Source: a phage
Strand: one strand, 5' to 3'
Sequence record: PZ490076.1
Length of the DNA stretch: 40,032 nt
Position 1 is the first letter of the stretch. Each line of letters begins with the position of its first letter. Below are positions 1-40,032 of this stretch, in pieces. The notes beneath the pieces were generated by a model, which saw nothing but the letters and a program-made list of their open reading frames with translations, searched no databases and was not told the origin of the DNA. The position numbers and the translations under genes are program-made.

Positions 1-127
1 GCGCTACTCATAGTGATTTCCGTTTAATACAGTCGTATATCCCATACCCTATTAGCCAGATGACCGGAGATAAGCATACCCAATGTCCAACACTCATAGT
101 TAACCTCTATCAATTTAAGTGGTAATC
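1..127. repeat. Window-end duplication: bases 1-127 are identical to 39906-40032 (assembly/circularisation overlap, not the phage terminal repeat)
   Basis: Direct comparison of the first and last 127 nt; gives a unit length of 39,905 bp. The junction falls inside the early gene region, not at T7-like genome termini. Confidence 0.9.
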
Positions 128-461: not shown

Positions 462-965
462 CTATTGCAGCTTGGACACAAGGAAGAAACAGTCAACCAG
501 TATCAGCTTGCCATTCACAGCCCGTACATTGCGTGGGCTTATCTCAAACCGAATGTCTGACCCAAAGTTAGAGCAGGCGTCCAGCGCCATCAGCACATCC
601 ATCAGACCTTCCCTCACAGTCTCAGTCTCAGACCTGTCGTGTGCAACTTGGAATATCTCGTACCACTTGTGATACAGGTCAGCAGGCCGAGAGACTACCG
701 GAGACCGTGAGAAGCACTCGCGCAGCACCTGATAGAGTTGCCACTGGTCGTCGGCTAAATGCGCCTTGAGACCTCGCGTTGGTGGCATGTAGTCCATCTC
801 ATACGTGCCTACCTCAATCATCTTGACTTCAGGGAACAGTGGAGACTCAGGAAACCATCCCCACGCCATACACTCCTTTATCGGGTCAGAAGAGATCAGA
901 AGTACACGCTTCCCGCAATCCTTCAGGTAGCACTTAGTGAACGCGCCTTTGCCTATCAGTTTCAT
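462..965 (-). CDS. Early protein, protein-kinase-like (resembles the N-terminal kinase part of T7 gp0.7), 167 aa; first gene after the host-type early promoters
   Basis: Gly-rich loop-like IGKGAF near the N-terminus and a catalytic/activation-loop-like segment DIRFEISPRNVRAVNGKLILVDCF, comparable to T7 gp0.7 (GNGHFS ... [21 protein letters not shown]); AAAGGA RBS. Confidence 0.5.
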   Translation of the reverse strand: MKLIGKGAFTKCYLKDCGKRVLLISSDPIKECMAWGWFPESPLFPEVKMIEVGTYEMDYMPPTRGLKAHLADDQWQLYQVLRECFSRSPVVSRPADLYHKWYEIFQVAHDRSETETVREGLMDVLMALDACSNFGSDIRFEISPRNVRAVNGKLILVDCFFLVSKLQ

Positions 966-1174: not shown

Positions 1175-1279
1175 CTACTTTCTGTCATCTGCCTGTTGTT
1201 CGTATGACTTATCAGGCTGTCTACTTAACCGGGATGACCCGGCGTCTTCACTATCCGGTTGTTGCCGTGTCGTGTTGAC

Positions 1280-1315
1280 GGAAGCTATTAAGCCATAGCC
1301 TAGACCTATAGTCAA
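1280..1315 (-). promoter_or_regulatory. Host sigma70-type early promoter (T7 A1-like): -35 TTGACT, 17-nt spacer, weak -10 CTTAAT
   Basis: Minus strand reads TTGACTATAGGTCTAGGCTATGGCTTAATAGC; layout parallels T7 A1 (TTGACT TAAAGTCTAACCTATAG GATACT). Downstream leader contains AAGTAGACAGCCTGATAAGTC, near-identical to the T7 early leader as recalled. Confidence 0.45.
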
Positions 1316-1426
1316 TAGGTAATTCGAAATAATATTGATTAAGCTATCGTCGGCCTCATGGTGTAAGAGGATATAGTCTTTGACTAACATGTCTTTGACC
1401 TTAAGTCTATAGCTGTGTGTCTATTA

Positions 1427-1517
1427 ACTGTAGGTCTCTGACTGTAGGCGTTGGTGTCTTATGGTTGTGACTGTAGGTATAGCAGGAGTCAATGACTGTA
1501 GGTAGTGAGACTGTAGG
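1427..1517 (-). repeat. Array of 5 short direct repeats (minus-strand CCTACAGTC) just inside the predicted left terminal repeat
   Basis: Plus-strand (G)ACTGTAGG at 1427, 1441, 1469, 1494, 1509; analogous in position to the CCTAAAG-type repeats next to the T7 terminal repeat. Confidence 0.6.
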
Positions 1518-1553
1518 TGTGGACGTAATGTTATACTATAACACTATACAGAT

Positions 1554-1737
1554 AGAGACTCAGAGACAGACCTATAGCTCCAACCTATCGTCTAACCTCC
1601 AGCCATAGCCTAGACCTATCGTTGACCTAACGTCTTGACTATCGGTCCAACCCTATGATAGACTGGCACGGGTAGGGCCTTTGGTCTGGACTTAAAGAGG
1701 GCCTATGGGGGAGACTTGAGGTTCTTGAACTGTGAGA
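1554..1737 (-). repeat. Predicted direct terminal repeat of the linear genome (single collapsed copy, about 184 bp); left genome end at 1737 on the minus strand
   Basis: Minus strand from 1737 reads TCTCACAGTTCAAGAACC...TCCCCCATAGG, resembling the T7 left terminus (TCTCACAGTGTACGG...TTCCCCCATAGGGGG). Region near 1554-1561 (GAGTCTCT ATCTGT) resembles the T7 TR end (GTGTCCCT ATCTGT). Boundaries rest on remembered T7 sequence. Confidence 0.4.
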
Positions 1738-1774
1738 TGTGGTCTCAAACTTTTGGTCCAAAACTCATCGTCAC

Positions 1775-1813
1775 TACTGTAGGCCACAGCCACTGTAGGT
1801 CAAGGACCGTAGG
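1775..1813 (-). repeat. Second short array of the same repeat (3 copies) on the right-end side of the predicted terminal repeat
   Basis: Plus-strand ACTGTAGG at 1775 and 1792, variant ACCGTAGG at 1806. Confidence 0.5.
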
Positions 1814-1976
1814 TCAGGCGACACTAGGATAGACCAGTAAGTAGGATGACCCTAAGTGAGCTTCTATTAAGGTGTTACCTAAAGTCCTTGACTACAATAG
1901 CTAAGGTCAGTAGAGTGAGTCTTTATCCACGTACTGACCTTAGGTCTTCCGCTCATGAATCGTTACCATGATTGCG

Positions 1977-2135
1977 TTAATTACACTGAGACACCAGAGA
2001 ACATACGAGAGTCTCGACCCACCCGACCCACTTACTTCCAGCAGTAACGCCAGCAGCAAGTAGAACAGCAGCAAGAAACCTGTATGTAGCTCGATTGGTC
2101 GCCAGAGCTTTAAGTACAGCTTTGGTCTTTGCCAT
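1977..2135 (-). CDS. Small hydrophobic protein, 52 aa, in the position of T7 gene 19.5
   Basis: Hand translation: MAKTKAVLKALATNRATYRFLAAVLLAAGVTAGSKWVGWVETLVCSLVSQCN; AGGAGG Shine-Dalgarno 11 nt upstream; not in the ORF track because it is under 60 aa. Confidence 0.35.
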   Translation of the reverse strand: MAKTKAVLKALATNRATYRFLAAVLLAAGVTAGSKWVGWVETLVCSLVSQCN

Positions 2136-2314
2136 ATGCTACATACCTCCTGTATCTATGGTCGGTGACTATCTGTATTGGAGGGATTATGATTAATATC
2201 ACCTCCTTCCATCGGTGCAAGCCTTAGGTAAGAACTCGGAGTCTGCCTCCTAAGGTCTTGCATAAAGTCTGCATATGTATATTCACTACAGTAATACTAT
2301 AAGTAACCGGGGGT

Positions 2315-2337
2315 CTTCCCTATAGTGATAGTTAAGT
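2315..2337 (-). promoter_or_regulatory. Phage RNAP promoter (phiOR-like), downstream of the large terminase gene
   Basis: Minus strand CTTAACTATCACTATAGGGAAGACC; matches the family consensus ACTAAACTATCACTATAGG. Confidence 0.65.
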
Positions 2338-2431
2338 CCAAACTCCTTATAAAACAGTAGGTTAGACTGGTAGTAACTATAGGTTACTAACTGCGTATTA
2401 ATTCAGTTTTCGCCTATAGTTATTCATTCAG

Positions 2432-4219
2432 CTAGTGGAACGTAACGTAGGACCCTAGTCCAAGCTCGTCGTCCGTATCGTGAGTTACCCGGACCCCATT
2501 GTCCCAGAACTCAGTGTGGATGGACTCGAAGCCTTTCCGTGGGTTCTCCATCTGTTCTTCCAGCCACTCCTCAGTGACTTCACGTTCGCCTTTGTTGGCA
2601 TCCTTCGCCATAGACTCAACGAAGAACTGTACACCGATAGCCAGCGCATCAAGTCGGTCATCGTGTGCCAATGCTCCACGTTCACGAGAGATACGTGTCA
2701 TCTGGTAGAAGAGAGAGTAGATAGGATTACGAACACCATCCTTATCAGAGGCAGACTGGTAATCTTGGACGATAGCAGCAGCGTTGATGATAAGTCGGTG
2801 AGACCCCATGATAGGCTCCAGAACGTCACAGATGCGGAGCTCCTTCTGACCCTTACTCTTCACTTCAGTTACAGCAGCAGGATGAATACGGGAAGCTACA
2901 GGCTTGAATAGCTCAAGGTACATCCCATCACCGAAGTTACCCTCAATGACGTATTCGTTGACCTTCCACTTACGACCAATCTTAGCTAAGGCTTCCAGAG
3001 TAGAGTCTTCATAGCCACCTCGCATACCGCCAACTTCCATAGCGAAGATGTAGCCGTTTAGCTGATACAGTACCGCATAACCAGTTTCATCCTTACCACG
3101 ACCACTAGGGTCAATGACTAGAATCTTCTGGGTGTACGAACTGAAGGCAGAACCTACAGTCTGATACGTGTGGTATGAGTCACCCATGAGTCCAACGTTA
3201 GGAACGTCCTCACGCTTGTTCTGAGGGTTAGGAAGCCATTGGTATACCATTGGGCTAGACGCTGGGTCCAAGTCGGCTACGATAAGGTCACGGAGCTTCA
3301 GAGGGTACTTCTCGGCATCACTCAGGTTAGGGTTAAGCATGAACTGTAGAGCGAAGCCAGCTTTACCATAGGACAGCTCACGTTCCTTCAGGTCCGTATC
3401 ATCGAATCGTACCTCATCGGTCGGACGCCAGTAGAAGGACTCAGGGTCCTCTTCCAGTTCTGCCTGAAGCATAGGAGCCAGACGGTCGCCGTAAGACTGC
3501 CAGTCCTTCTTATCGCGTGGGTAGCGAGCGGGCCAGATGGTAGTGGTGTATCCACGGCCTTCCAGCTCACGATACAAGGTCATCTCGTTCTGAGGAGTAC
3601 CTAGATAGATGATTGTACCTCCCGGCTTCAGGATAGCGTCGAACTCTTTTACAAGCTCTGACAGACGGTCTCGTGCAGCCTGAGTCGCTGAGTTGTTAGG
3701 AACCTCAACGTCATCGGCAATCAGGATGTCAGCACGACTACCAGTCAACTGACCAGTGATACCAACGGACTTAACCGAAGGTGAGTGGTCTGGCTTGGCT
3801 GGTCCAACGTCGAAGCTGATAACCGCATCTCGCTGCCCCTGCTTAGGTTTGAGTTCCTGAAGCTGAGGCATGAGGTCGATGATTCGCTTGATGAAGATGG
3901 AGTTCGCATCGGCTCGTTCCTTTGAGGCCGACACAATCATGAACTTCAAGTCTGGGTTGTTCCATAGTTTCCAGACCACGAAACCACAGGTCAGAAACGA
4001 CTTACCAATACCACGGAAAGCCTGAAGGATGAAGCGGCGATTATCCCCAGCAGCCAGCTTCTTACACATATCTATCTGGCAGCGGGTTGGAACCGGAAGG
4101 CTAAGAGCTTTCCAGAGAACGAAGATGAAGAACACGAAGTCCTCTTTCATCCTTTTTGTCACGGCCTCATTACGCTCTTGCGGCGTTAACTGCATCAATT
4201 GCCTCCTGTTCAGTATCAA
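2432..4219 (-). CDS. Terminase large subunit (T7 gp19 homolog), 595 aa
   Basis: Translation aligns with T7 gp19 from [18 protein letters not shown] onward ([53 protein letters not shown]). Confidence 0.97.
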
Positions 4220-4556
4220 ATCGACCGAGCCAGCGAGGTTGTATAGCCTTCCACTTCCCGGTCTGTTTACAATAAGACACGCCTTTCGGCAGGTCCCTGT
4301 TCCTGTTGTTTTCAGCCTTGGTCACAGCCCGAAGGTTCTCAATCCTGTTGTCTGTCCGGTTGCGGTTGATGTGGTCAATCACAAGGTCTGATTCAAGGGC
4401 GAACTCAGGGTTGTGCAGCTTGTAGATTAGACGGTGTACGAGATACTTACGGTAGTTGACCGTAGTCCTAAGATAACCGTGGTTGTCCATTGAGCCGACT
4501 TCACGTCCCTTCCTGAACAACTTACCGTCTGAATACGCAAAGTCTGTCAACATCAT
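4170..4556 (-). CDS. Free-standing HNH homing endonuclease, 128 aa, between Rz and terminase
   Basis: HNH motif in translation ([19 protein letters not shown]...[26 protein letters not shown]); start overlaps the Rz stop (ATGA); no counterpart at this position in T7. Confidence 0.85.
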
Positions 4557-4999
4557 TGCTCCTTCTCTTGCTGTAAGGCTCTCACAGTGTCTTGAAGGGC
4601 CTTAATCCACTTGTCTCCTTTCACTCCGATGGCGATAAGACGTTTAGCATCTCGTTCGTCAAGTTCGGCGTAACCATCAATGAAGCATCGACCGTCACTT
4701 TGCGTGGTTCCACTCGTAGGTTTGACTCGGACGAGCAGCCGCTTATTGTCAGACTTAAGGTCAGTAATAATCCTATCAGTGCTGCCTTCCAGCTCGGACA
4801 TTTCGTCCTGAAACCGTTTGGACACTTTGTTGACTTCAGCTTGGACAGCAAGCCTTGTATCTTCCGATGCCTTAAGATTCGAGGTGTATTCTGCATTGAC
4901 CTTAGCCTCCCACTTGTTGTTAGCGGTGTGGTAGCCACCAGCAAACATCACTGCTGCAAGTAGCCACGGAGCCGCTCTCTTAAATTTTTGAAATACCAT
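4553..4999 (-). CDS. Rz-like i-spanin (T7 gp18.5 homolog), 148 aa
   Basis: N-terminal transmembrane segment (WLLAAVMFAGGY) and strong similarity to T7 gp18.5 (EGSTDRIITDLKSDNKRLLVRVK..DERDAKRLIA..GDKWIKALQDT). Confidence 0.85.
   Translation of the reverse strand: MVFQKFKRAAPWLLAAVMFAGGYHTANNKWEAKVNAEYTSNLKASEDTRLAVQAEVNKVSKRFQDEMSELEGSTDRIITDLKSDNKRLLVRVKPTSGTTQSDGRCFIDGYAELDERDAKRLIAIGVKGDKWIKALQDTVRALQQEKEQ
4621..4896 (-). CDS. Rz1-like o-spanin lipoprotein embedded in the +1 frame of Rz (T7 gp18.7 homolog), about 91 aa from the internal Met
   Basis: Lipobox LTISGC and C-terminus similar to T7 gp18.7 (WKAALIGLLLTLSLTISGCSSES...SLMVTPNLTNEMLNV). Start codon uncertain. Confidence 0.7.
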   Translation of the reverse strand: MQNTPRILRHRKIQGLLSKLKSTKCPNGFRTKCPSWKAALIGLLLTLSLTISGCSSESNLRVEPRKVTVDASLMVTPNLTNEMLNVLSPSE

Positions 5000-5381
5000 A
5001 TGTCTCCTTTAGCATTCTGCTATGAGTTGACTTAGCCCATTCCACGACTTCCTTCAGATTCTTAGTAGGAGCATGAGTTTCTTTCTTACCTCCCATCCTA
5101 ATGTCACCATAGTACATAGTTACACCTTGACGTTTAGCAAACCTAGAGTATACGCCTTTAGGTAGTTCCCTAGAGGATACAGTGTTAGCCTTGTTTGCGC
5201 CTTTAGGTATGCACCTAAGGTTTGACAGTTCGTTATTCATAGGATTCCTGTCAATGTGGTCTATGACGTAGCCATCTGGGATAGGACCGTAGGCTTCCTC
5301 CCATAGTAATCTATGAACCCCATGAACCTTACCATTGCGAGTAACCTTCCAGTACCCACCACTTATGTAAGCGTCTTCCAT
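4980..5381 (-). CDS. Free-standing HNH homing endonuclease, 133 aa, between small terminase and Rz
   Basis: HNH motif (GKVHGVHRLLWEEAYGPIPDGYVIDHIDRNPMNNELSNLRCIPKGANKAN); strong RBS AAGGAGGT 5 nt upstream of ATG. Confidence 0.85.
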   Translation of the reverse strand: MEDAYISGGYWKVTRNGKVHGVHRLLWEEAYGPIPDGYVIDHIDRNPMNNELSNLRCIPKGANKANTVSSRELPKGVYSRFAKRQGVTMYYGDIRMGGKKETHAPTKNLKEVVEWAKSTHSRMLKETYGISKI

Positions 5382-5396
5382 ATAACCTCCTTAGTG

Positions 5397-5438
5397 TTAA
5401 CCATAAAGGCCACTACCTATAGTAATGACCTTGAGTCT
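5397..5438 (-). promoter_or_regulatory. Candidate RNase III processing site (copy A of a conserved 42-bp element), upstream of the HNH gene / downstream of gp18
   Basis: Minus strand AGACTCAAGGTCAT-N-GTGGCCTTTATGGTTAA; same element occurs at 29280-29318 and 36245-36286; resembles T7 RNase III sites (..GCCCTTTATGAT..) and sits where T7 has R18.5. Confidence 0.4.
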
Positions 5439-5443
5439 AACAC

Positions 5444-5707: not shown

Positions 5708-5898
5708 GTTTTACCACCTCCTTTAATCGTTTTGTAGACTAGCACACCAATCTGGACAACGGTGTACGCGATAGCTGCAACGTAGAACCATTCGTTCAGT
5801 GTAAGTCCGAAGAAGAACCGACTGGCACCATCAGCCGCAGCGGTCCCGACGATAGGAGAGGCTTTAAGGACCTCATTCTTGAAGTCTAACTCAATCAT
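5704..5898 (-). CDS. Class II holin (T7 gp17.5 homolog), 64 aa
   Basis: Similarity to T7 gp17.5 (FFFGLTLNEWFYVAAIAYTVVQIG). Confidence 0.8.
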   Translation of the reverse strand: MIELDFKNEVLKASPIVGTAAADGASRFFFGLTLNEWFYVAAIAYTVVQIGVLVYKTIKGGGKT

Positions 5899-6031
5899 AA
5901 AACCTCCAGTTTAAAGCGGGTCGTCCGTGACCCAAAGTTGTTACATACGTTGGTTAGCGTGTAGTTAGCCTCTACCTCCGCAACTTTCTAACATCTACCC
6001 CACCAACTTAATGGCAAAATGGTTTTGTTTA

Positions 6032-9000
6032 TTACTTCTGTTCAAGAGCAGAAAGTCTGGCTTCGATTCTTTCCAGTTTTCTTCTCTGATAAGCGGCTTC
6101 AGCAAAGAAAATTCCGTCAGGCCGAACACCCCACTCCTCACCCTCTTCGTGAATAACCACCTCGGTGTATACAGGTTCTTCCGTAGTGGTGACATTACCC
6201 TCCTCGTCAGTGTGTTCAATGATTTCATTGTGCGAAAATACCGTATCGGTCATCCGTGGATACTTGTCATAGCACAGAACAGCATAACGACAATTCGTAC
6301 TGTTTTCGTCCATCAGCCCATGTGCAATGAATACATCACGAATTTGCTGAGCAATAACCCCGAAGTGAATACGAGCATCATTGCCTTTCAGTTGAACAGC
6401 ATCTAACCACTGGTACATGATGTAGTGAACGTCACTCCAGGCATCAAGGAAAGCATCATCAAAAACTACCGGCTCTGTTTTCCTCTCCCCGTTAGAAGTA
6501 ACAATAGGGTTACTTCCGAGGTATGCAGTGGTGAAACGGTTTCTAGGCCCACCAAGCGCAGTGACGTTATCGTTATAAGGCTTAACATCAGCACTCTGAA
6601 ATAGATGCTCATCTCCGTTGTAAACTATTCGCCTTGAGTCGGTGTTATTTGCACCATAAAGCGTAATCTGTGCGCCAGTCGTTGCACTGGTGCCTTCACC
6701 CCCGCAAAATATGATGCGCTGCCCTGCCGGGTTATCAGTCGGTATAGATTTTCCGATAAACCCATATTCACCTTCCATTAAAACTTCAGAGCGAATGTTA
6801 CGACTGGTGCTGGCTCTAATGGTCACATGACCTAAACCCAAATCCCCTGTAAATTCCATTGGCGCAGGAACAGTGCGAATCCCATTCGTATCAAAAAACA
6901 CGGGAACAGCTCTGTTAGGTACAGCACCATACCTGAAATCCCTTGAAACACGATTGTCTGGGCCAATCTTCATTTTGTAGCAATACAAATCTGAGGGATG
7001 ACCATCTGATTTGAATGGGTCCTTCGCTGAGTTATCTCCATATGCCCATGGGTTAAAATGGTCCTCTCCACCAAACATGTAGTAGATGTAACTATCCTTC
7101 ACAACTACCGAACCAACACCTACACCTGAGTTAACTATTCCGCCCTGATAAATCTGGTCAGTGATGTTAACCCATTCAATACCATCTGCATTCCAATTGT
7201 TTACATTCAAGCGTGCATAGAAGGTGCGAGGATAAGATGCCTTGTAACGATCATCTGGTGCACCTGCTTCCCATTCATTTTCTGCACGTTCTGAACCAAA
7301 CATAATAAGGTCATCCCCTACTTTAGCAAAAGGCAATGTAGTATGATGAACATTATGTGGAAATCTCAGTGACTCCCAAGTCTGACCTATGTCTCTACTA
7401 CGATGCAAAGAGCTACCTAGTCTATCGCTCCTAGTGCCACGGGTGATGAGGTACAATACACCATCGTAATACTTGATGCAGGGTTCTGAGGCATCTGACT
7501 CATACTCTGAAGGTATCTGACGACGAACATAGTTAGCCGGATTATCGAAAGCGTTAGGGAAGTAGAATAGTCCAACTTCGCGTGGAGCTACATCACCTTG
7601 GTGATAACCCATAACAAAGCCATTGTTATCAATAGCAGAAAAGCTATGAACTTTAGTCACACGAGGAATTAAGCCAAGATCTGTCTTACGCCATGGCGAT
7701 TTATGGAATGAAGTACCCATATGCCAGTTCTTTCCAGCGTTATTCAAATCTGAGTCCTGCTGGTTAGGTGTAAGAACCGTGAAGTTGTCCTTATCTATTA
7801 CCGTTGCAACCTTCATATCACCTGATACACCTGTTACCGCAGAGTTAGAGAAGTTAACAAAGTCACCCACGAACAGCCCGTGATCAGGTACATGGATTGT
7901 TGCATATCGCTGATTTGCTGCCTTCGTAATACCACCAGTGAGATGCAGGCTACGAGACATGGGGCGATCCCACAATGCACAATTGGTTAATGCGTTCTTG
8001 GCTAAAGTACGTGTTTCAATCATGGCAAACAGACGGTTGCGACATACACCCATACTCATACAATGATAGTTCACTGTAGGGTAATCTGGATGCAGATCAG
8101 TTAACCACTCTGGAGTAGACCATGTTTGACCATCATCACCAGACTTAACCCATGATACGTGAAGACGGCTAACACCATGACGATCGCTACCCATGTAAGG
8201 TGCATATATCACATTCTCATATACGAACGCTTTATCCTGAGGCCACGCATTGTAATAAGGGGTGTCCGTTATCTTGAACAGCTCACCCTGAACAAATTCT
8301 TCAGAGACATAATAAAGAGGTTGTCCGGGAATGCGCTCATAAACGAAACGAGTGTTGATGAAGCGACTAATGTCAGGCAGGGATGTGACCTTATATGTCT
8401 TCCCATTGCCATTAAGCCTTTGTCCAACCGGTGTGTCGTTTAATGCGCTCGTTAACGCTGCTGTATCATCAGTGACACCATCCCCTTTAGCACCCCAACC
8501 ACGGACATCTTTTTCATCAAGCCAGCGTGCTCTATGTAATTCAGGGTAGAGTATTGCCCCTTCCGGGTTTGAAATCTGACTTCTTAAAGCAGCATCACCA
8601 ACACTAACCCACGCACCTAATCCAATCCCACCGGAAGTTTCAGGAGTTGAACCAGCAGGAACGTTCTTTGGAAGCGTACCATCCCAGCGGTAATAATCAC
8701 CATCCTCTTCCCATAGCAGGACCTCGCTCCATGTTGTAACGTTGTAGCCTTTCTCGAAGGAGCGACGGGTAATATAGCCAATTAGACCAGCTTCCCTGAT
8801 ACTCTCAGCGATTCGTCGTGCTTCGTCCTCGCTATCCTTAGCGTTGCCAGCAGAGCTGCTAGCAGCATCGGCATATTCCTTCGCTAAGTCAACCGTTTGG
8901 TCTCGACCTTCTTCTGCAATATGGATAGCCTGAAGCTCTGAATTGGTCAGGTCACTAGCTGTCAACACTGAGCCATTCCTGAAGTCTACCACTAAGTCAG

Positions 9001-9226
9001 TTCCAGTCTGACGGTGAATACGAACGATGTCGAAACCTGATTGGTCAACCAACATCTCAATCATCGTTGGATTAAGGAATCGGTAATCTCGACCAACTTC
9101 CAGTACACGGTTCAGGGTAGGGTTAGAGCTATTCACCAGCGTAACAACAACAAACGTTCTGGCTAGGTAGTCGAACTCAATCCTGTACTGAGTGTTTCCT
9201 GAAGGGAATTGTGTAATCGTGGACAT
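6032..9226 (-). CDS. Tailspike with endosialidase (endo-N-acetylneuraminidase) catalytic domain and C-terminal intramolecular chaperone domain, 1064 aa (gene 17 position)
   Basis: N-terminus resembles the T7 gp17 particle-binding domain (EFDYLARTFVVVTL...DLVVDFRNGSVLTASDL); two sialidase Asp-box motifs (SGDDGQTW, SRDIGQTW); C-terminal chaperone-like tail; length equals the K1F endoNF length as I recall it. Confidence 0.85.
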   Translation of the reverse strand: MSTITQFPSGNTQYRIEFDYLARTFVVVTLVNSSNPTLNRVLEVGRDYRFLNPTMIEMLVDQSGFDIVRIHRQTGTDLVVDFRNGSVLTASDLTNSELQAIHIAEEGRDQTVDLAKEYADAASSSAGNAKDSEDEARRIAESIREAGLIGYITRRSFEKGYNVTTWSEVLLWEEDGDYYRWDGTLPKNVPAGSTPETSGGIGLGAWVSVGDAALRSQISNPEGAILYPELHRARWLDEKDVRGWGAKGDGVTDDTAALTSALNDTPVGQRLNGNGKTYKVTSLPDISRFINTRFVYERIPGQPLYYVSEEFVQGELFKITDTPYYNAWPQDKAFVYENVIYAPYMGSDRHGVSRLHVSWVKSGDDGQTWSTPEWLTDLHPDYPTVNYHCMSMGVCRNRLFAMIETRTLAKNALTNCALWDRPMSRSLHLTGGITKAANQRYATIHVPDHGLFVGDFVNFSNSAVTGVSGDMKVATVIDKDNFTVLTPNQQDSDLNNAGKNWHMGTSFHKSPWRKTDLGLIPRVTKVHSFSAIDNNGFVMGYHQGDVAPREVGLFYFPNAFDNPANYVRRQIPSEYESDASEPCIKYYDGVLYLITRGTRSDRLGSSLHRSRDIGQTWESLRFPHNVHHTTLPFAKVGDDLIMFGSERAENEWEAGAPDDRYKASYPRTFYARLNVNNWNADGIEWVNITDQIYQGGIVNSGVGVGSVVVKDSYIYYMFGGEDHFNPWAYGDNSAKDPFKSDGHPSDLYCYKMKIGPDNRVSRDFRYGAVPNRAVPVFFDTNGIRTVPAPMEFTGDLGLGHVTIRASTSRNIRSEVLMEGEYGFIGKSIPTDNPAGQRIIFCGGEGTSATTGAQITLYGANNTDSRRIVYNGDEHLFQSADVKPYNDNVTALGGPRNRFTTAYLGSNPIVTSNGERKTEPVVFDDAFLDAWSDVHYIMYQWLDAVQLKGNDARIHFGVIAQQIRDVFIAHGLMDENSTNCRYAVLCYDKYPRMTDTVFSHNEIIEHTDEEGNVTTTEEPVYTEVVIHEEGEEWGVRPDGIFFAEAAYQRRKLERIEARLSALEQK

Positions 9227-9273
9227 TATGCCTCCTGTTATGAATTAAAAGGAGACCTATGGTAGCGCCTCCA

Positions 9274-9296
9274 GTTTCCTATAGTGATAGTTTAGT
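9274..9296 (-). promoter_or_regulatory. Phage RNAP promoter (phi17-like) upstream of the tailspike gene
   Basis: Minus strand GGACTAAACTATCACTATAGGAAACTGG; the gp16 TAA stop codon lies inside the promoter. Confidence 0.7.
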
Positions 9297-12200
9297 CCTT
9301 GATGTGGATACCTTGTTCCTCAAACGTTCCCAGTAGCAACTTCTGAGTAATCGGGTCGTTAGGAACTAGTTCACGGAACGTATTATACATCCCGGTCATG
9401 TAGTCACGCTCGTTGACGCGAGTATCAGCCTTGAGGTAGCCAGCCAGGTTGTAAGCAGAAACGCCAACGTTAGCAGCATATCCGAAAGCTGGAACCTGCT
9501 CCAAGAAGTTACCAACAACATTCATCACAGGGTCACTTGTAGCTGCACCAAACGTGATGGCACGTTCAGGCTTCTCTGTAGGCGAACGAGGTAGGATAGA
9601 CGAACGGAGCATCTTAGTGTCCTCATACCCAGCTATACCCCCAAGAAGGTTAGCTACCCCAAGTGGTCCACCAAGGTGTGAACTACGTGATAGAGCTGCA
9701 TATCCAATCATCGTCGGATCTAGAGCTTGCTTGAGGTAGTCACGGTCTCGACCATCCTGCATAGCGTAAGCCTTGACATGAGCCTGAGCCATGTAGTAGA
9801 TACCAGCAAGACCCATAGACATCACAGTGGACAGGGCAGCGTCCATCGCTCGGTTGTTCTTCGTGGCGTTATAGAAGGTACGCATGGTTCGCCCATTGAT
9901 GGACTTGATGACGAAGTTCTTAAACTGAAGGACAGTCTTAGCGATAGGACCATAAGCCTTGGCGTCCATGTTGGACAGCTTATGAGGACGGAGTAACGTT
10001 TCGTCAGCGATGGTATCACCCATACGCCACAGGTCCATAGCCCTTGGGTCCTGACTGAACGCCTTCTTATCCTTGATGGTGTACTTCCCGTCTGGACCAC
10101 GAGTCACTGACTCACGGATGAGGGACTTAATGCCCTTCCACTGCTCGTCAGAGATACCAGCGGTCTTAAGCCAGCGGTCATCGAACTTACGCTTACTACC
10201 AGTCAGGCTATGCTCCACGATGTCAGACAGGAAGCCTTGACGTCCAGCATCTAACAGGTAGTTGGTCGTACCGTTGAGGACTTTAGTGAACGGAGAGCGT
10301 ACTGCAAGTTCGCCAGTGTAATACTTGGCAGTCCCCAGAGCTGTAGCTGTACCACGACCGAGGTCACTGTAAGATCGCAGACGGTCAATGACATCCTGTT
10401 TAGACGGACGGATTGAGTCATCAAGTTCCTTACCGAAGATAACATTGTGCAGGTCCTTAATCTCTGAGGCCCCAACCTTCTTGTTACGGAAGGCTAGGTC
10501 ACGGAAAATTGGGACTCCATGCAGCATTGCACGAACGTTGCCACGAGCCAGCATACCACCAATCTCCGTTAAGTTCTGAACACCCATGTAGGCATTCTTA
10601 GCGAAGAACGATAGGTCTGTCATTGTGCGCATCACGGTAGCGAAGGCTGCATCATCAGCACCATCACGTCGAGAACGACCAGTTAGAATCTTCAAGGTGT
10701 CACGTAAGGTAGATACTTCACCTTTCAACTTACCGTCATCCCCAGCCTTGTTCATCATGGTCTCAACCAAGTCCTTCATGTCCTTCGTGGTCTTTCCTGT
10801 ACCAGCCATGATAGCAATATCGCCATTAACTCGACGGTTGTAGGCTGGAAGAATCTTATCCATGTCGTACTCACGCAGCTTGTTTACACTGAAGGTCTCA
10901 CCATTAGGCAGGGTAATCTCCACGTCATTATCAAACAGGTTACGAGCCTCAAGGAAGTTGTTATTCTCCAGACCTACCAGACCGTTGATGTTCTCTTCCA
11001 TTACTGATGAACGTTCGAACTGCTCTGTATGGGAGATACCGTAAGCCTTATCGTTGGCGTACTTATCGACTGCCTTAGCCAGCTCCTCAGGAGTCATCTT
11101 AGGGTTCTCAGCCAGTAATGCATCTTCCAGTCTCTGCTTGACGTGTGGACGTGATGCATATCCTGCCAGCCATGACTGTTTGATAGCATTCTGGAGACCT
11201 TCAGCCCCACCAAGCATCTCAGTGTACATCTGCTTCATCTTACTGCTGTAGACGACAGGTACATAAGACCCTTTGAAGCGACTTCCTGGGAAGATGTTCA
11301 CAGCCTTATGGTTCCCGAACATTGCAGGGTTCTCCATCATCTCACGCTTAGAGTCCAGAACTTGCTTCATAATGTCGTGGACCTTAAGCTCTTTAGATGT
11401 AAGCTGAGCTTTAAGCTGACCTGAGGTGTCCTCGATAGCAAGAGTTACACGTTCATAGACGTCCACACGCTGAGCTGAGCGGTCACGCCAGAACTTAAGG
11501 GAATGCAACGGGTCTTCCAGAGCTTCTGTTATAGCGTCATTCAAGTCGTTGTACGCCCTGTGGTCGATGGCACGAAGGCGCTCGAACGTATCCGAAGATG
11601 TGGTCCCGATTTTGCCTGAGGCCCCTGACTGCATACCAGTTGGTGAACGCACTAAGTCAGCTGCAAGTCCACGAATCTCAGGGTTCTCTGACCGAAGCAG
11701 CTTCATGCCAATCTCAGTCAGCCCACCAAGGTTCACACCAGCAGCGGCACGTTCAGGATCAATCACTTCGTCAAAGACCTTACGTGTCTTAGGGTTCAGA
11801 GGGTTCTCACCAATCAGGATTGAACCATCCTCCAGTCGTACACTACCCGGCTCATTCGGAACGTCAGCGAACTTAACGCCTTGATGACTAAAGGTCTCCT
11901 CACCTTCTTGAATAGGTAGACGAGACAGGTCCTGACCATCAACGTTACGGGCTGTCTCACGAGCTTCCAGACGTGTGGCTGGTCCAGCGAACTCGTTAGT
12001 GTTACGCCCTAAGGCTCTGCCTAAACCATCAGCGATAGCAGTCATACCTCCGCCGAAGAGAGCACCGCCAAGGATAGCCTCAGCCACATGAGCATCGCCA
12101 CCAGCCACTGAGGTACGGGACATCTCTGATACACCAGCAAGTGCTCCAGATTGAGCAGCCACGGTGAACATCTTGTTGACCAGCTTGCCACCCTTACCAA

Positions 12201-13179
12201 TCTGCCCAGCGATAGGAACGTAGGTCAGAGGATCCACACCAGCGCCAATCACACCAGCAGCTAGCTGAGCACCAGTCCCAGCCTTGGCCTTCTCTTGGTC
12301 CAACTTCTGGTTCTCAAGCGCCAAGTTAATAAGCTCGGTCAGGTTCTGAGGGGAGCCACCAGTAATGACACCGTAATACTGAGGGAGAACTCCAGCGTTA
12401 CGAATCTGGTCCAGCTCCTCACGAGACCACTTATGGTTGTTCCAGCGGGTAGGGTTGAACACATCGCCAATGACATCAAGTGAGTCCTCGGTCTGACCAG
12501 CGCGGATAGCCATGCCGACCATAGAGTTCTTCACTTCAGCTTCTGTAGCCGCACCGAAACCGAACCACGTAGAGCGATCCTCTCGTTCCTGCATGGTCTC
12601 GCCAGTAGACTTATAGAACATCTCACCGAACGATTCGTTGGGAGCTTCAGGTGCTTGACCCTCAATGTTTAGACCAGCAGCGGTCGGAAGGTTCTCGCCC
12701 AGAGCTACTTTAGGTTTAGCCTTGAGTCCTTCCGTGAGTGCGTCAAATACGTTAGCGCTTACTGGTGGAGTCTTTGGGCTAATGCCATTGAGTGCTCGCG
12801 CGACTCCCTTCTGATAGACTTCAGGGTCGTACCGGGAGCCTGTCTCATGGAAGCTGATAGCTTGAGCCAGAGAAGACAGGGTGTCAGGGTCCGATAGGTC
12901 GAGACTCTGGGTAGCTGGAATACCAGTTGCAGCCACCACTGAGTCGATATAAGCCTTAGTTTCGTTCTCGTTAGGAGGTGCCCATCGGTTGATAATCTTC
13001 TCGATGGAGTCATAACCTTGGCGACCGTAGGACAGCAGGTTTTTACCTAAAGCTCGGACGCCAGACTCTGGACTATCGAAGGTGACGAATGAGCCATCAT
13101 CTCCAGTCATTCCTTCCCATTGGTCCTTACTTACCCGGATGTTACCCGGATTGTTATTGCGAATACCACGAGTCGCCAT
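9292..13179 (-). CDS. Internal virion protein D (T7 gp16 homolog), 1295 aa, with a divergent N-terminal domain
   Basis: Extensive collinear similarity to T7 gp16 over most of the length (e.g. RLEARETARN, SPTGMQSGASGK, MENPAIFGN, DKAYGISH, RRVNGDIAIM, LSRSS.LG.PL); the first ~130 aa (MATRGIRNNNPGNIR...) do not resemble the T7 lytic transglycosylase motif. Confidence 0.95.
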   Translation of the reverse strand: MATRGIRNNNPGNIRVSKDQWEGMTGDDGSFVTFDSPESGVRALGKNLLSYGRQGYDSIEKIINRWAPPNENETKAYIDSVVAATGIPATQSLDLSDPDTLSSLAQAISFHETGSRYDPEVYQKGVARALNGISPKTPPVSANVFDALTEGLKAKPKVALGENLPTAAGLNIEGQAPEAPNESFGEMFYKSTGETMQEREDRSTWFGFGAATEAEVKNSMVGMAIRAGQTEDSLDVIGDVFNPTRWNNHKWSREELDQIRNAGVLPQYYGVITGGSPQNLTELINLALENQKLDQEKAKAGTGAQLAAGVIGAGVDPLTYVPIAGQIGKGGKLVNKMFTVAAQSGALAGVSEMSRTSVAGGDAHVAEAILGGALFGGGMTAIADGLGRALGRNTNEFAGPATRLEARETARNVDGQDLSRLPIQEGEETFSHQGVKFADVPNEPGSVRLEDGSILIGENPLNPKTRKVFDEVIDPERAAAGVNLGGLTEIGMKLLRSENPEIRGLAADLVRSPTGMQSGASGKIGTTSSDTFERLRAIDHRAYNDLNDAITEALEDPLHSLKFWRDRSAQRVDVYERVTLAIEDTSGQLKAQLTSKELKVHDIMKQVLDSKREMMENPAMFGNHKAVNIFPGSRFKGSYVPVVYSSKMKQMYTEMLGGAEGLQNAIKQSWLAGYASRPHVKQRLEDALLAENPKMTPEELAKAVDKYANDKAYGISHTEQFERSSVMEENINGLVGLENNNFLEARNLFDNDVEITLPNGETFSVNKLREYDMDKILPAYNRRVNGDIAIMAGTGKTTKDMKDLVETMMNKAGDDGKLKGEVSTLRDTLKILTGRSRRDGADDAAFATVMRTMTDLSFFAKNAYMGVQNLTEIGGMLARGNVRAMLHGVPIFRDLAFRNKKVGASEIKDLHNVIFGKELDDSIRPSKQDVIDRLRSYSDLGRGTATALGTAKYYTGELAVRSPFTKVLNGTTNYLLDAGRQGFLSDIVEHSLTGSKRKFDDRWLKTAGISDEQWKGIKSLIRESVTRGPDGKYTIKDKKAFSQDPRAMDLWRMGDTIADETLLRPHKLSNMDAKAYGPIAKTVLQFKNFVIKSINGRTMRTFYNATKNNRAMDAALSTVMSMGLAGIYYMAQAHVKAYAMQDGRDRDYLKQALDPTMIGYAALSRSSHLGGPLGVANLLGGIAGYEDTKMLRSSILPRSPTEKPERAITFGAATSDPVMNVVGNFLEQVPAFGYAANVGVSAYNLAGYLKADTRVNERDYMTGMYNTFRELVPNDPITQKLLLGTFEEQGIHIKD

Positions 13180-24705: not shown

Positions 24706-24766
24706 CTTGAATCTCCTCTTTAAGTTAAGACTAAAATCTATCTTATAGTCATATCTTAGGTCCTAA

Positions 24767-36215: not shown

Positions 36216-36244
36216 GGTGTAGCTCCTGATTGAATGAGTTAGGG

Positions 36245-36286
36245 TTAATCATGAAGGCCACGACTCTGAGTCATGACCTTGAGTCT
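36245..36286 (-). promoter_or_regulatory. Candidate RNase III processing site (copy C of the conserved element; T7 R1.1 position) between the promoter and gene 1.1
   Basis: Minus strand TAGACTCAAGGTCATGACTCAGAGTCGTGGCCTTCATGATTAA. Confidence 0.4.
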
Positions 36287-36308
36287 AATCCTATAGTGAT
36301 AGTTTAGG
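36286..36308 (-). promoter_or_regulatory. Phage RNAP promoter (phi1.1-like)
   Basis: Minus strand CCCTAAACTATCACTATAGGATTAGAC. Confidence 0.7.
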
Positions 36309-39719: not shown

Positions 39720-39916
39720 TACAGTTTGCTCCCAAGAGTTGCTATATCCCAGACGTTCGCGAGGTTGCATATGAATCGTCCGTTAGGCTGACGTACAGTC
39801 CAGCGGACCATACGTACATAGTTGAATTTATAGACTTTACGCGCTTTGTTGATGTCTCTCACCAGCACGTAGGCGATAAGTCCATAGCCTATGGCTATCA
39901 ATATTGCGCTACTCAT
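39719..39916 (-). CDS. Hypothetical small early protein with a hydrophobic N-terminus, 65 aa
   Basis: ORF track; N-terminus MSSAILIAIGYGLIAYVLV looks membrane-anchored; start lies in the window-end overlap region. Confidence 0.35.
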   Translation of the reverse strand: MSSAILIAIGYGLIAYVLVRDINKARKVYKFNYVRMVRWTVRQPNGRFICNLANVWDIATLGSKL

Positions 39917-40032
39917 AGTGATTTCCGTTTAATACAGTCGTATATCCCATACCCTATTAGCCAGATGACCGGAGATAAGCATACCCAATGTCCAACACTC
40001 ATAGTTAACCTCTATCAATTTAAGTGGTAATC

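What the first reader, a model, noticed from the sequence alone, without database searches (positions are those of the whole stretch)
6032..9226. Tailspike is an endosialidase: predicts a K1 (polysialic acid) capsule-specific host range
The gene-17-position protein has a T7 gp17-like N-terminal particle-attachment domain, then a sialidase-type region with two Asp-box motifs (SGDDGQTW and SRDIGQTW) and a long C-terminal region ending in a chaperone-like segment (...GVRPDGIFFAEAAYQRRKLERIEARLSALEQK). Its length (1064 aa) equals what I recall for the phage K1F endosialidase. This is the main host-range determinant and a capsule-degrading enzyme of potential practical interest.
Basis: partly seen in the sequence, partly recalled or inferred. 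Interest (0 to 1): 0.6.

Follow-up and report, generated by a model that had tools for sequence, protein, structure and literature searches.

The report
K1F-type endosialidase tailspike, already known

Summary
The observation and the interpretation both hold. Window 6032-9226 (minus strand) is an intact 1064-aa ORF at the gene-17 position of a complete K1F-like (Kayfunavirus) T7-type phage genome.

- **Similarity.** The protein is 97.1% identical to K1F gp17 (endoNF), with 31 substitutions and no indels. It is 1060/1064 identical to the tail protein of the deposited phage BUCT788. It matches the endoNF crystal structures at E = 0 and the chaperone-domain structure 3GW6 at 6e-184.
- **Domains.** All four endosialidase Pfam domains are present, plus the T7 gp17 anchor and the Peptidase_S74 chaperone.
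- **Motifs and residues.** The catalytic residues H350, R549, E581, R596 and R647 are conserved, as are the autocleavage dyad S911/K916 and the GVIAQ motif.
- **Expression signals.** A phage-RNA-polymerase promoter copy and an AGGAGG ribosome-binding site sit directly upstream.
A TSP1/gp66-type connector domain lies at residues 156-211.
- **What differs from K1F.** Only a handful of lineage-specific substitutions, for example S848A and S809R in the stalk and E525K. These could at most fine-tune activity among K1 strains.

K1-capsule dependence is a strong inference, not shown here. Novelty: already known. Interest: low.

The parts
9277..9296 (-). Phage RNA-polymerase (T7-class) promoter copy directly upstream of the gene, overlapping the stop codon of gene 16. 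Its core is CTAAACTATCACTATAGG.
   Evidence: It is one of 11-12 copies of this motif, all on the minus strand, against 0.06 expected by chance. Its role as a promoter is inferred from the resemblance to the T7-class CACTATAGG core and from the positions of the copies between genes.
9231..9236 (-). Shine-Dalgarno sequence AGGAGG, 4 nt before the ATG.
   Evidence: Read directly from the sequence.
6032..9226 (-). Gene 17: precursor of the endosialidase tailspike (endo-N-acetylneuraminidase), 1064 aa plus stop.
   Evidence: ORF. Matches PDB endoNF at E = 0. 96.5% nucleotide and 97.1% protein identity to K1F gene 17. 99.9% nucleotide identity to BUCT788.
8867..9199 (-). Residues 10-120: T7 gp17-type N-terminal anchor that attaches the tailspike to the virion.
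   Evidence: Pfam PF03906 at 1.1e-15. PDB 7boz, T7 gp17 N-terminus, at 1.9e-15.
8594..8761 (-).
   Evidence: Pfam PF18668 at 4.3e-19. PDB matches to the G7C gp63.1 (4oj5) and CBA120 TSP3/TSP4 (5w6f, 5w6h) tailspikes.
8291..8491 (-). Residues 246-312: endosialidase N-terminal extension, which is the start of the crystallised endoNF fragment.
   Evidence: Pfam PF12218 at 8.6e-38. The 1v0e alignment starts at residue 246.
6965..8290 (-). Residues 313-754: six-bladed beta-propeller catalytic domain. It holds Asp-box 1 (window 8120-8143), Asp-box 2 (window 7376-7399) and the catalytic residues H350, R549, E581, R596 and R647.
   Evidence: Pfam PF12217 at 8.9e-219. Residues checked against K1F and the deep mutational scan (PMC13564897).
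7709..7957 (-). Residues 424-506: beta-barrel domain inserted in the propeller. It is a polysialic acid binding site.
   Evidence: Pfam PF12195 at 2.6e-47. Its role is taken from PMC13564897.
6497..6958 (-). Residues 757-910: trimeric beta-helix stalk, which carries the third polysialic acid binding site. It holds the substitutions S809R (private to the window), S848A and S895R relative to K1F.
   Evidence: Pfam PF12219 at 5.4e-79. Substitutions.
6035..6496 (-). Residues 911-1064: C-terminal intramolecular chaperone domain, released by autoproteolysis at S911. The S911/K916 dyad and the GVIAQ motif are present.
   Evidence: PDB 3gw6 at 6.1e-184. Pfam PF13884. The K1F record annotates the mature peptide as ending at residue 910 and the chaperone domain as starting at 911. 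Dyad conserved. Dyad and GVIAQ described in PMC3742440.

Best explanation
The gene encodes the single tailspike of a K1F-like T7-type podophage. It is an orthologue of endoNF, the endo-alpha-2,8-sialidase of CAZy family GH58 (family assignment from my own knowledge).

**Inferred mechanism, step by step**
1. The phage RNA polymerase transcribes the gene late, from the promoter at 9277-9296.
2. The 1064-aa precursor trimerises, nucleated by the C-terminal chaperone domain (residues 911-1064).
3. Once the stalk has folded, the Ser911/Lys916 dyad cleaves the chain at Ser911 and the chaperone domain is released.
4. The mature trimer (residues 2-910) docks onto the tail through its T7 gp17-like N-terminal anchor.
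5. On the cell, the beta-barrel and stalk sites bind polysialic acid. The beta-propeller active site (H350, R549, E581, R596, R647) cleaves the alpha-2,8 linkages.
6. The virion thereby tunnels through the K1 capsule to the outer membrane.

**Consequence.** The phage is predicted to infect only E. coli that carry the K1 (polysialic acid) capsule.

**Shown here:** sequence, domain and residue identity, gene position, and upstream expression signals.
**Inferred from K1F work:** activity, maturation and host range.
For: - **ORF.** Intact 1064-aa ORF.
- **Structures.** E = 0 to endoNF structures 1v0e, 3gvl, 3gvj and 3gvk over residues 245-910. 6.1e-184 to the chaperone-domain structure 3gw6. 7.6e-236 to the endosialidase structure 4hiz.
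- **Pfam.** End_beta_propel at 8.9e-219, End_tail_spike at 5.4e-79, End_beta_barrel at 2.6e-47, End_N_terminal at 8.6e-38, plus Phage_T7_tail and Peptidase_S74.
- **Identity.** 96.5% nucleotide identity to K1F gene 17 and 99.9% to BUCT788. 97.1% protein identity to K1F gp17 without indels.
- **Selection.** 73 synonymous against 31 non-synonymous codon differences, which by my rough estimate gives dN/dS of about 0.13, indicating purifying selection.
- **Named residues.** Of 30 residues checked, 29 are unchanged. That set holds every catalytic, structural and host-discrimination residue named in the K1F deep mutational scan, plus S911 and K916 and three stalk residues I recalled from memory. Only S848 differs (PMC13564897).
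- **Synteny.** gp16 lies upstream; the T7-family holin gp17.5 and gp18 lie downstream.
- **Expression signals.** Promoter and AGGAGG directly upstream.
- **Whole window.** It is a K1F-like genome, 94.8% identical to K1F over 90% of 25 kb.
- **Hosts of relatives.** K1 strains.
- **Literature.** The endosialidase is essential for K1F infection and specific for K1 (PMC13564897). Its enzymatic domain is sufficient to transfer growth on K1 hosts (PMC13352976).
Against: Nothing found argues against the enzyme assignment. The caveats concern host range.

- No experiment was done here, and the host of the nearest record (E. coli E4002) has no capsule type given.
- No paper on BUCT788 is held.
- A few records with the same gene carry host labels that do not fit a K1-only range: K-12 MG1655, 'Acinetobacter phage', and IME207 with host Klebsiella pneumoniae. 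These are unverified metadata.
- There are 31 substitutions relative to K1F. They include S848A, at a residue I recall (from memory of the 2005 endoNF structure paper, not confirmed in the held literature) as a stalk polysialic acid contact.
- The K1F scan shows that even K1 strains differ in susceptibility, through capsule modification and O-antigen (PMC13564897). 'K1-specific' is therefore necessary for infection but may not be sufficient for every K1 strain.
Confidence: 0.95

Rival explanations
1. The protein is an endosialidase-fold tailspike whose lineage-specific substitutions have shifted its substrate preference or processivity. Examples would be a different tolerance of O-acetylated K1 polysialic acid, or a different host set among K1 strains. 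Host range would then differ measurably from K1F while remaining sialic-acid based.
For: - Eleven substitutions are seen only in this window and BUCT788 among 10 natural homologues, and two are private to the window: E525K and S809R.
- S809R, S848A and S895R lie in the stalk, which the K1F scan calls an adaptive 'tuning knob' for processivity and specificity.
- E525K lies two to three residues from H527 and S528, which belong to the network around catalytic E581 (PMC13564897).
- T472K and T491D lie in the beta-barrel binding domain.
Against: - All residues explicitly tied to catalysis, binding-site tuning or host discrimination in the scan are unchanged.
- None of the substituted positions is discussed in that paper.
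- Single substitutions never re-targeted K1F to other capsule types (PMC13564897).
- 97% identity with a strong synonymous excess fits neutral drift under purifying selection.
Confidence: 0.04
2. The gene is non-functional or not expressed: a decaying copy, an assembly chimera, or a binding-only lectin-like tailspike without catalysis.
For: Only that no expression or activity data exist for this sequence. The window's ends show an assembler-type 127-nt overlap, so it is an assembly product.
Against: - Uninterrupted full-length ORF, collinear with K1F without indels.
- Catalytic residues and the cleavage dyad are intact.
- Promoter and a strong ribosome-binding site are present.
- The synonymous to non-synonymous ratio is 73:31.
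- An independently deposited isolate genome, BUCT788, has the same gene at 99.9% identity.
- It is the only tailspike gene in the genome, so the phage could not adsorb without it.
Confidence: 0.01

Closest known systems
Endosialidase endoNF, gp17 of Escherichia phage K1F (CAJ29390.1 / AAZ73001.1; PDB 1V0E, 1V0F, 3GVJ-L, 3JU4, 3GW6)
   Same: - Same length (1064 aa), no indels, 97.1% identity.
- Same six-domain order.
- Same Asp-boxes, catalytic residues, S911/K916 cleavage dyad and GVIAQ motif.
- Same position between gene 16 and gene 17.5.
   Different: - 31 substitutions, spread over all domains, with 95.5-98.7% identity per domain.
- Notable ones are S848A, S809R and S895R in the stalk, E525K near the catalytic network, and T472K and T491D in the beta-barrel.
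- None is at a residue shown to matter.
Tail protein XTB81135.1 of Escherichia phage BUCT788 (PV540240.1)
   Same: 1060/1064 residues identical and 99.9% nucleotide identity. The whole window is 99.9% identical to this genome over the 25 kb compared, with the same two HNH insertions downstream.
   Different: Four residues differ: K525 against E, R809 against S, I839 against M, and R895 against S. The deposited record calls it only 'tail protein'.
Other endosialidases: a deposited endosialidase structure (PDB 4HIZ, phage phi92 from memory) and the endosialidase module of phage IME207 (Shuimuvirus)
   Same: Same catalytic fold. 4HIZ matches at 7.6e-236 over residues 246-908. IME207 carries a close copy (92.9% nucleotide identity) of the same enzyme and chaperone domain.
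   Different: They have different N-terminal attachment modules and sit in unrelated phage backbones. IME207 diverges completely before about residue 100 and becomes near-identical only after about residue 275. This shows the enzyme is a mobile module.
[quoted passage not shown]
   Same: Ser-Lys dyad with the lysine five residues after the serine, the GVIAQ trimerisation motif, and autocleavage after trimer folding (3gud at 3.1e-13; PMC3742440).
   Different: They are attached to unrelated N-terminal passenger domains.
Branched dual-tailspike systems (KP32, K11, K1-5, G7C)
   Same: They share the T7 gp17-type anchor. They also share a small domain after the anchor that resembles domains found in G7C gp63.1 and the CBA120 tailspikes.
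   Different: There is no second tailspike gene in the window. Gene 17 is followed directly by holin gene 17.5. The literature classes K1F as a single-tailspike, anchor-only system (PMC13352976).

Membership tests
Phage endosialidase (endo-N-acetylneuraminidase; CAZy GH58, family number from my own knowledge) | Beta-propeller catalytic domain matching the endosialidase profile and the solved endoNF structure | tested here: met
   Pfam PF12217 at 8.9e-219, covering profile positions 1-366 of 367. PDB 1v0e and 3gvl at E = 0.
Phage endosialidase (endo-N-acetylneuraminidase; CAZy GH58, family number from my own knowledge) | Two Asp-box motifs (S-x-D-x-G-x-T-W) in the propeller | tested here: met
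   SGDDGQTW at residues 362-369 and SRDIGQTW at residues 610-617. 0.0064 expected per shuffled protein.
Phage endosialidase (endo-N-acetylneuraminidase; CAZy GH58, family number from my own knowledge) | Catalytic and substrate-coordinating residues H350, R549, E581, R596 and R647 | tested here: met
   All five are identical to K1F. Their roles are taken from PMC13564897.
Phage endosialidase (endo-N-acetylneuraminidase; CAZy GH58, family number from my own knowledge) | Inserted beta-barrel (polysialic acid binding) domain and C-terminal trimeric stalk domain | tested here: met
   PF12195 at 2.6e-47 (residues 424-506) and PF12219 at 5.4e-79 (residues 757-910).
Phage endosialidase (endo-N-acetylneuraminidase; CAZy GH58, family number from my own knowledge) | [quoted passage not shown] | not testable with these tools
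   This needs an enzyme assay. It is inferred from 97% identity to the biochemically characterised endoNF.
Intramolecular chaperone / Peptidase S74 C-terminal domain | Profile and structure match to the chaperone domain | tested here: met
   PDB 3gw6 at 6.1e-184 (residues 790-1064) and 3gud at 3.1e-13. PF13884 at 5.6e-09, 36.6 bits against a cut-off of 22.
Intramolecular chaperone / Peptidase S74 C-terminal domain | Ser-Lys catalytic dyad at the cleavage site, and the GVIAQ trimerisation motif | tested here: met
   S911 and K916 are conserved. HFGVIAQQ is present at residues 954-961. The motifs are as described in PMC3742440. The K1F record places the mature end at residue 910.
Intramolecular chaperone / Peptidase S74 C-terminal domain | Autoproteolytic release of the domain after trimer folding | not testable with these tools
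   This needs protein expression, SDS-PAGE and an S911A control.
T7 gp17-type tail fibre/tailspike (virion anchor) | N-terminal anchor domain homologous to T7 gp17, and a gene placed between gene 16 and gene 17.5 | tested here: met
   PF03906 at 1.1e-15. PDB 7boz at 1.9e-15. gp16 lies upstream and the T7-family holin downstream.
Genus Kayfunavirus (K1F-like Studiervirinae) | Genome-wide nucleotide similarity and collinearity with K1F | tested here: met
   94.8% identity over 90% of the 25-kb half compared with K1F, and 99.9% to BUCT788. The other 15 kb is 92-96% identical to several Kayfunavirus records.
Branched dual-tailspike system (anchor, branching domain and a second tailspike) | A second tailspike gene with a docking peptide, next to the first | tested here: not met
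   No further large ORF lies between gene 17 and the holin. The downstream ORFs are holin, gp18, HNH, spanin, HNH and terminase. K1F is classed as a single-tailspike system (PMC13352976).

The most novel reading that the evidence does not exclude
The substitutions specific to this phage lineage may tune how tightly the tailspike holds polysialic acid. The candidates are S848A, S809R and S895R in the stalk binding region, E525K next to the H527/S528 catalytic network, and T472K and T491D in the beta-barrel. If they do, this phage would have a measurably different host set or efficiency among K1 strains than K1F, for example on O-acetylated capsules. It would then be a natural example of the 'stalk tuning knob' proposed from deep mutational scanning.
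Probability: 0.12. Interest if true: 0.25.

Novelty: already known. Interest (0 to 1): 0.08.

Why it matters
The practical value is modest. The gene lets the phage be labelled with confidence as dependent on the K1 capsule. That is relevant for phage therapy or diagnostics against neonatal-meningitis, urinary-tract and avian pathogenic E. coli K1 strains. It also corrects the uninformative 'tail protein' label on the nearly identical deposited gene. The enzyme class is already used as a reagent to remove polysialic acid from neural and tumour cells, but this variant adds nothing known beyond endoNF. No open question becomes testable because of it.

Tried and rejected
1. **Terminator or structured RNA downstream of the gene (window 5895-6034).** The consensus scan found nothing there. 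The RNA fold is no better than shuffles (z = -0.40). Rejected.
2. **Sigma-70 promoters around the gene.** Five were found against 6.8 expected, so no signal. The relevant promoter is the phage-polymerase type.
3. **Branching domain implying a second tailspike.** Rejected. The domain at residues 156-211 matches the TSP1/gp66 N-terminal connector family, there is no second tailspike gene, and K1F is described as a single-tailspike system (PMC13352976).
4. **Literature support for S848 as a stalk polysialic acid contact.** No held paper mentions it. The deep mutational scan's supplementary tables are not held. The idea therefore rests on my memory only.
5. **A paper on BUCT788, to learn its host's capsule type.** None is held. 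The K1F genome paper (PMC1317022) is not held either.
6. **Plus-strand ORFs overlapping the gene (6011-6406, 8159-8443, 8352-8549).** These are mechanical ORFs antisense to a strongly conserved gene. They were not pursued.
7. **Structure prediction.** Not run, because crystal structures of a 97%-identical protein already exist.
Full report
**1. The observation**

The window has an uninterrupted ORF at 6032..9226 on the minus strand.

Both Asp-boxes are present. SGDDGQTW lies at residues 362-369 (window 8120-8143) and SRDIGQTW at residues 610-617 (window 7376-7399). In 20,000 composition-preserving shuffles of the protein, the Asp-box pattern occurs 0.0064 times per sequence. Two copies are therefore not chance.

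**2. What it is**

*Match to solved structures.* A sequence search against all solved structures gives these matches:
- E = 0 (about 1530 bits) to the K1F endosialidase endoNF (1v0e, 1v0f, 3gvj, 3gvk, 3gvl, 3ju4) over residues 245-910.
- 6.1e-184 to the endoNF C-terminal chaperone-domain structure 3gw6 (residues 790-1064).
- 7.6e-236 to a second endosialidase structure (4hiz).
- 1.9e-15 to the N-terminus of T7 gp17 (7boz, residues 6-115).

*Match to Pfam.* Seven families match above their curated cut-offs and give the full architecture:

| Residues | Pfam family |
|---|---|
| 10-120 | Phage_T7_tail |
| 156-211 | Tail_spike_N |
| 246-312 | End_N_terminal |
| 313-754 | End_beta_propel |
| 424-506 (inserted in the propeller) | End_beta_barrel |
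| 757-910 | End_tail_spike |
| 916-971 | Peptidase_S74 |

PHROGs places the whole protein in a tail-spike family at E = 0.

*Match to phage records.* The gene is 99.9% identical to the 'tail protein' gene of Escherichia phage BUCT788. It is 96.5% identical to gene 17 of phage K1F in all four K1F records. Thirty phage records cover at least 80% of it.

*Comparison with K1F gp17.* The K1F record annotates gene 17 as the endosialidase precursor. It puts the mature peptide at residues 2-910 and the chaperone domain at 911-1064. The protein here has the same length as K1F gp17 and aligns without gaps. It differs at 31 residues, which is 97.1% identity. It is 1060/1064 identical to the BUCT788 protein. 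Codon differences from K1F are 73 synonymous and 31 non-synonymous. By my rough estimate that is a dN/dS near 0.13, meaning purifying selection.

**3. Functional residues**

A 2026 deep mutational scan of the K1F tailspike (PMC13564897) names several groups of residues:
- H350, R549, E581, R596 and R647 as catalytic or substrate-coordinating.
- Q330, K585, N699, D331, H527 and S528 as a supporting network.
- R866 and D994 as a contact between stalk and chaperone domain.
- R812 and Y821 as stalk tuning residues.
- G730, N732, G742, S460, S468, G504, E373, N386 and Y387 as residues that discriminate between hosts.

All of these are unchanged here.

The autocleavage serine-lysine dyad (S911 and K916, the lysine five residues after the serine) and the GVIAQ trimerisation motif are also present. 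Both are described for endosialidase chaperone domains in PMC3742440.

The only residue on my checklist that differs is S848, which is alanine here. I recall S848 as a stalk polysialic acid contact, but I could not confirm that from the held literature.

**4. Surroundings**

The whole window is a K1F-like genome of the genus Kayfunavirus, read on the reverse strand.
- One 25-kb half is 99.9% identical to BUCT788. It is 94.8% identical to K1F over 90% of its length.
- The other 15 kb matches many Kayfunavirus records at 92-96%.

Gene 17 sits where it should.
- The gp16 orthologue (1295 aa, ORF 9292-13179) lies upstream.
- Downstream come the T7-family holin 17.5, gp18, spanin 18.5 and terminase 19.
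- No second tailspike gene exists. This agrees with the published description of K1F as a single-tailspike, anchor-only system (PMC13352976).

The expression signals are clear.
- Directly upstream, overlapping the gene 16 stop codon, is one of 11 minus-strand copies of CTAAACTATCACTATAGG. The chance expectation is 0.06, and none of 100 shuffles reached 11. I read this motif as the phage RNA-polymerase promoter, by analogy with the T7-class CACTATAGG core.
- An AGGAGG ribosome-binding site lies 4 nt before the ATG.
- The downstream intergenic region has no terminator or unusual fold.

**5. Mechanism**

The steps below are inferred from K1F work. The sequence basis for each was shown above.
1. 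Late transcription by the phage polymerase produces the 1064-aa precursor.
2. The C-terminal domain nucleates trimerisation and folding of the stalk.
3. The Ser911/Lys916 dyad cleaves at Ser911 and the chaperone domain leaves.
4. The mature trimer attaches to the tail through the gp17-type anchor.
5. The beta-barrel and stalk sites bind alpha-2,8 polysialic acid, and the propeller active site cleaves it. This lets the virion pass through the K1 capsule.

Three lines of evidence support K1-dependent host range.
- The enzyme is essential for K1F infection and is specific for K1. No single mutant in the scan reached K5 or Klebsiella capsules (PMC13564897).
- Transplanting the K1F enzymatic domain into Klebsiella phage KP32 conferred growth on E. 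coli K1 (PMC13352976).
- Relatives carrying this gene were isolated on K1 strains.

Three caveats apply.
- The capsule type of the BUCT788 host E4002 is not stated.
- A few records carry odd host labels.
- Susceptibility varies even among K1 strains (PMC13564897).

**6. What differs from K1F**

I aligned ten natural homologues.
- Eleven substitutions occur only in this window and BUCT788: K270R, T472K, T491D, A530S, T531A, P577S, G600S, N712S, T728A, S848A and G931S.
- Two are private to the window: E525K and S809R.

S809R, S848A and S895R lie in the stalk, which the scan describes as a tuning knob. E525K is close to H527 and S528. None of these positions is discussed in the scan paper, and its data tables are not held. 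These changes could fine-tune activity among K1 strains. Nothing suggests a change of substrate.

**7. Comparison with the known, and verdict**

Every membership feature testable from sequence is met for four groupings:
- the endosialidase family;
- the S74 chaperone domain;
- the gp17-type anchor;
- the genus Kayfunavirus.

Only the biochemical features could not be tested. The branched dual-tailspike architecture was considered and is not met.

Its single omission is the TSP1/gp66-type connector domain at residues 156-211.

The protein is one of the best-characterised phage depolymerases, and an almost identical gene is already public. The finding is therefore already known and of low interest (0.08).

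Noticed in passing
window 1-127 and 39906-40032: The two ends of the window are an exact 127-nt direct repeat. K1F's physical right end maps to about window position 1555. The window is therefore a circularly permuted, reverse-complemented complete genome. The overlap looks like an assembler (k = 127) artefact rather than the biological terminal repeat. The unique length would be 39,905 bp.
   Followed up: partly
window 4170-4556 (-) and 4980-5381 (-): Two HNH_3 homing-endonuclease ORFs (Pfam 9e-18 and 3.6e-18) flank the spanin gene 18.5, between gene 18 and terminase gene 19. K1F has neither at these positions. BUCT788 has both, one of them labelled only 'hypothetical protein'.
   Followed up: partly
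window 2319, 9278, 16555, 20962, 21950, 24771, 31254, 33621, 34562, 36290, 39369 (all minus strand), plus a degenerate copy at 24741: Eleven to twelve copies of CTAAACTATCACTATAGG occur against 0.06 expected. This is the phage RNA-polymerase promoter set of the genome. Two copies sit in tandem, 29 nt apart (24741 and 24770).
   Followed up: partly
L009 (Salmonella phage IME207, KX523699.2) 1242-4172, against window 6032-8703: A phage of an unrelated genus (Shuimuvirus, host field Klebsiella pneumoniae) carries the same endosialidase and chaperone domain at 92.9% nucleotide identity, on a different N-terminus. Protein similarity rises gradually from about residue 100 and is complete from about residue 275. 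This indicates recent exchange of the enzyme module between phage groups.
   Followed up: partly
one search hit table (PV615262.1, MZ311862.1): Near-identical endosialidase genes (95-96%) occur in a record named 'Acinetobacter phage vB_Aba_01KA' and in a phage whose host is given as E. coli K-12 MG1655, which has no K1 capsule. These are probably mislabelled or contaminated records, but they conflict with a K1-only host range.
   Followed up: no
window 8594-8761 (-), residues 156-211: A TSP1/gp66-type tailspike N-terminal domain lies between the T7-type anchor and the enzyme. It is shared with the G7C gp63.1 and CBA120 tailspikes. PDB 9vvr, an 843-aa tail spike, shares residues 1-265 at 4.5e-181 but has a different C-terminal part. 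This places a module junction near the conserved GAKGDGVTDD motif at about residues 245-254.
   Followed up: partly
window 5391-5440 and 36239-36288; also 1395, 5425, 29305, 36273: A 50-nt repeat (82% identical) lies just upstream of the first HNH gene and just downstream of the promoter at 36289. It contains a 15-21-nt element, ATGACCTTGAGTCTA (plus strand), present four times in the genome. It may be a conserved transcript leader or a processing site.
   Followed up: no
window 462-965 (-): A 167-aa ORF in the early region has no Pfam match. It is annotated 'hypothetical protein' in BUCT788.
   Followed up: no
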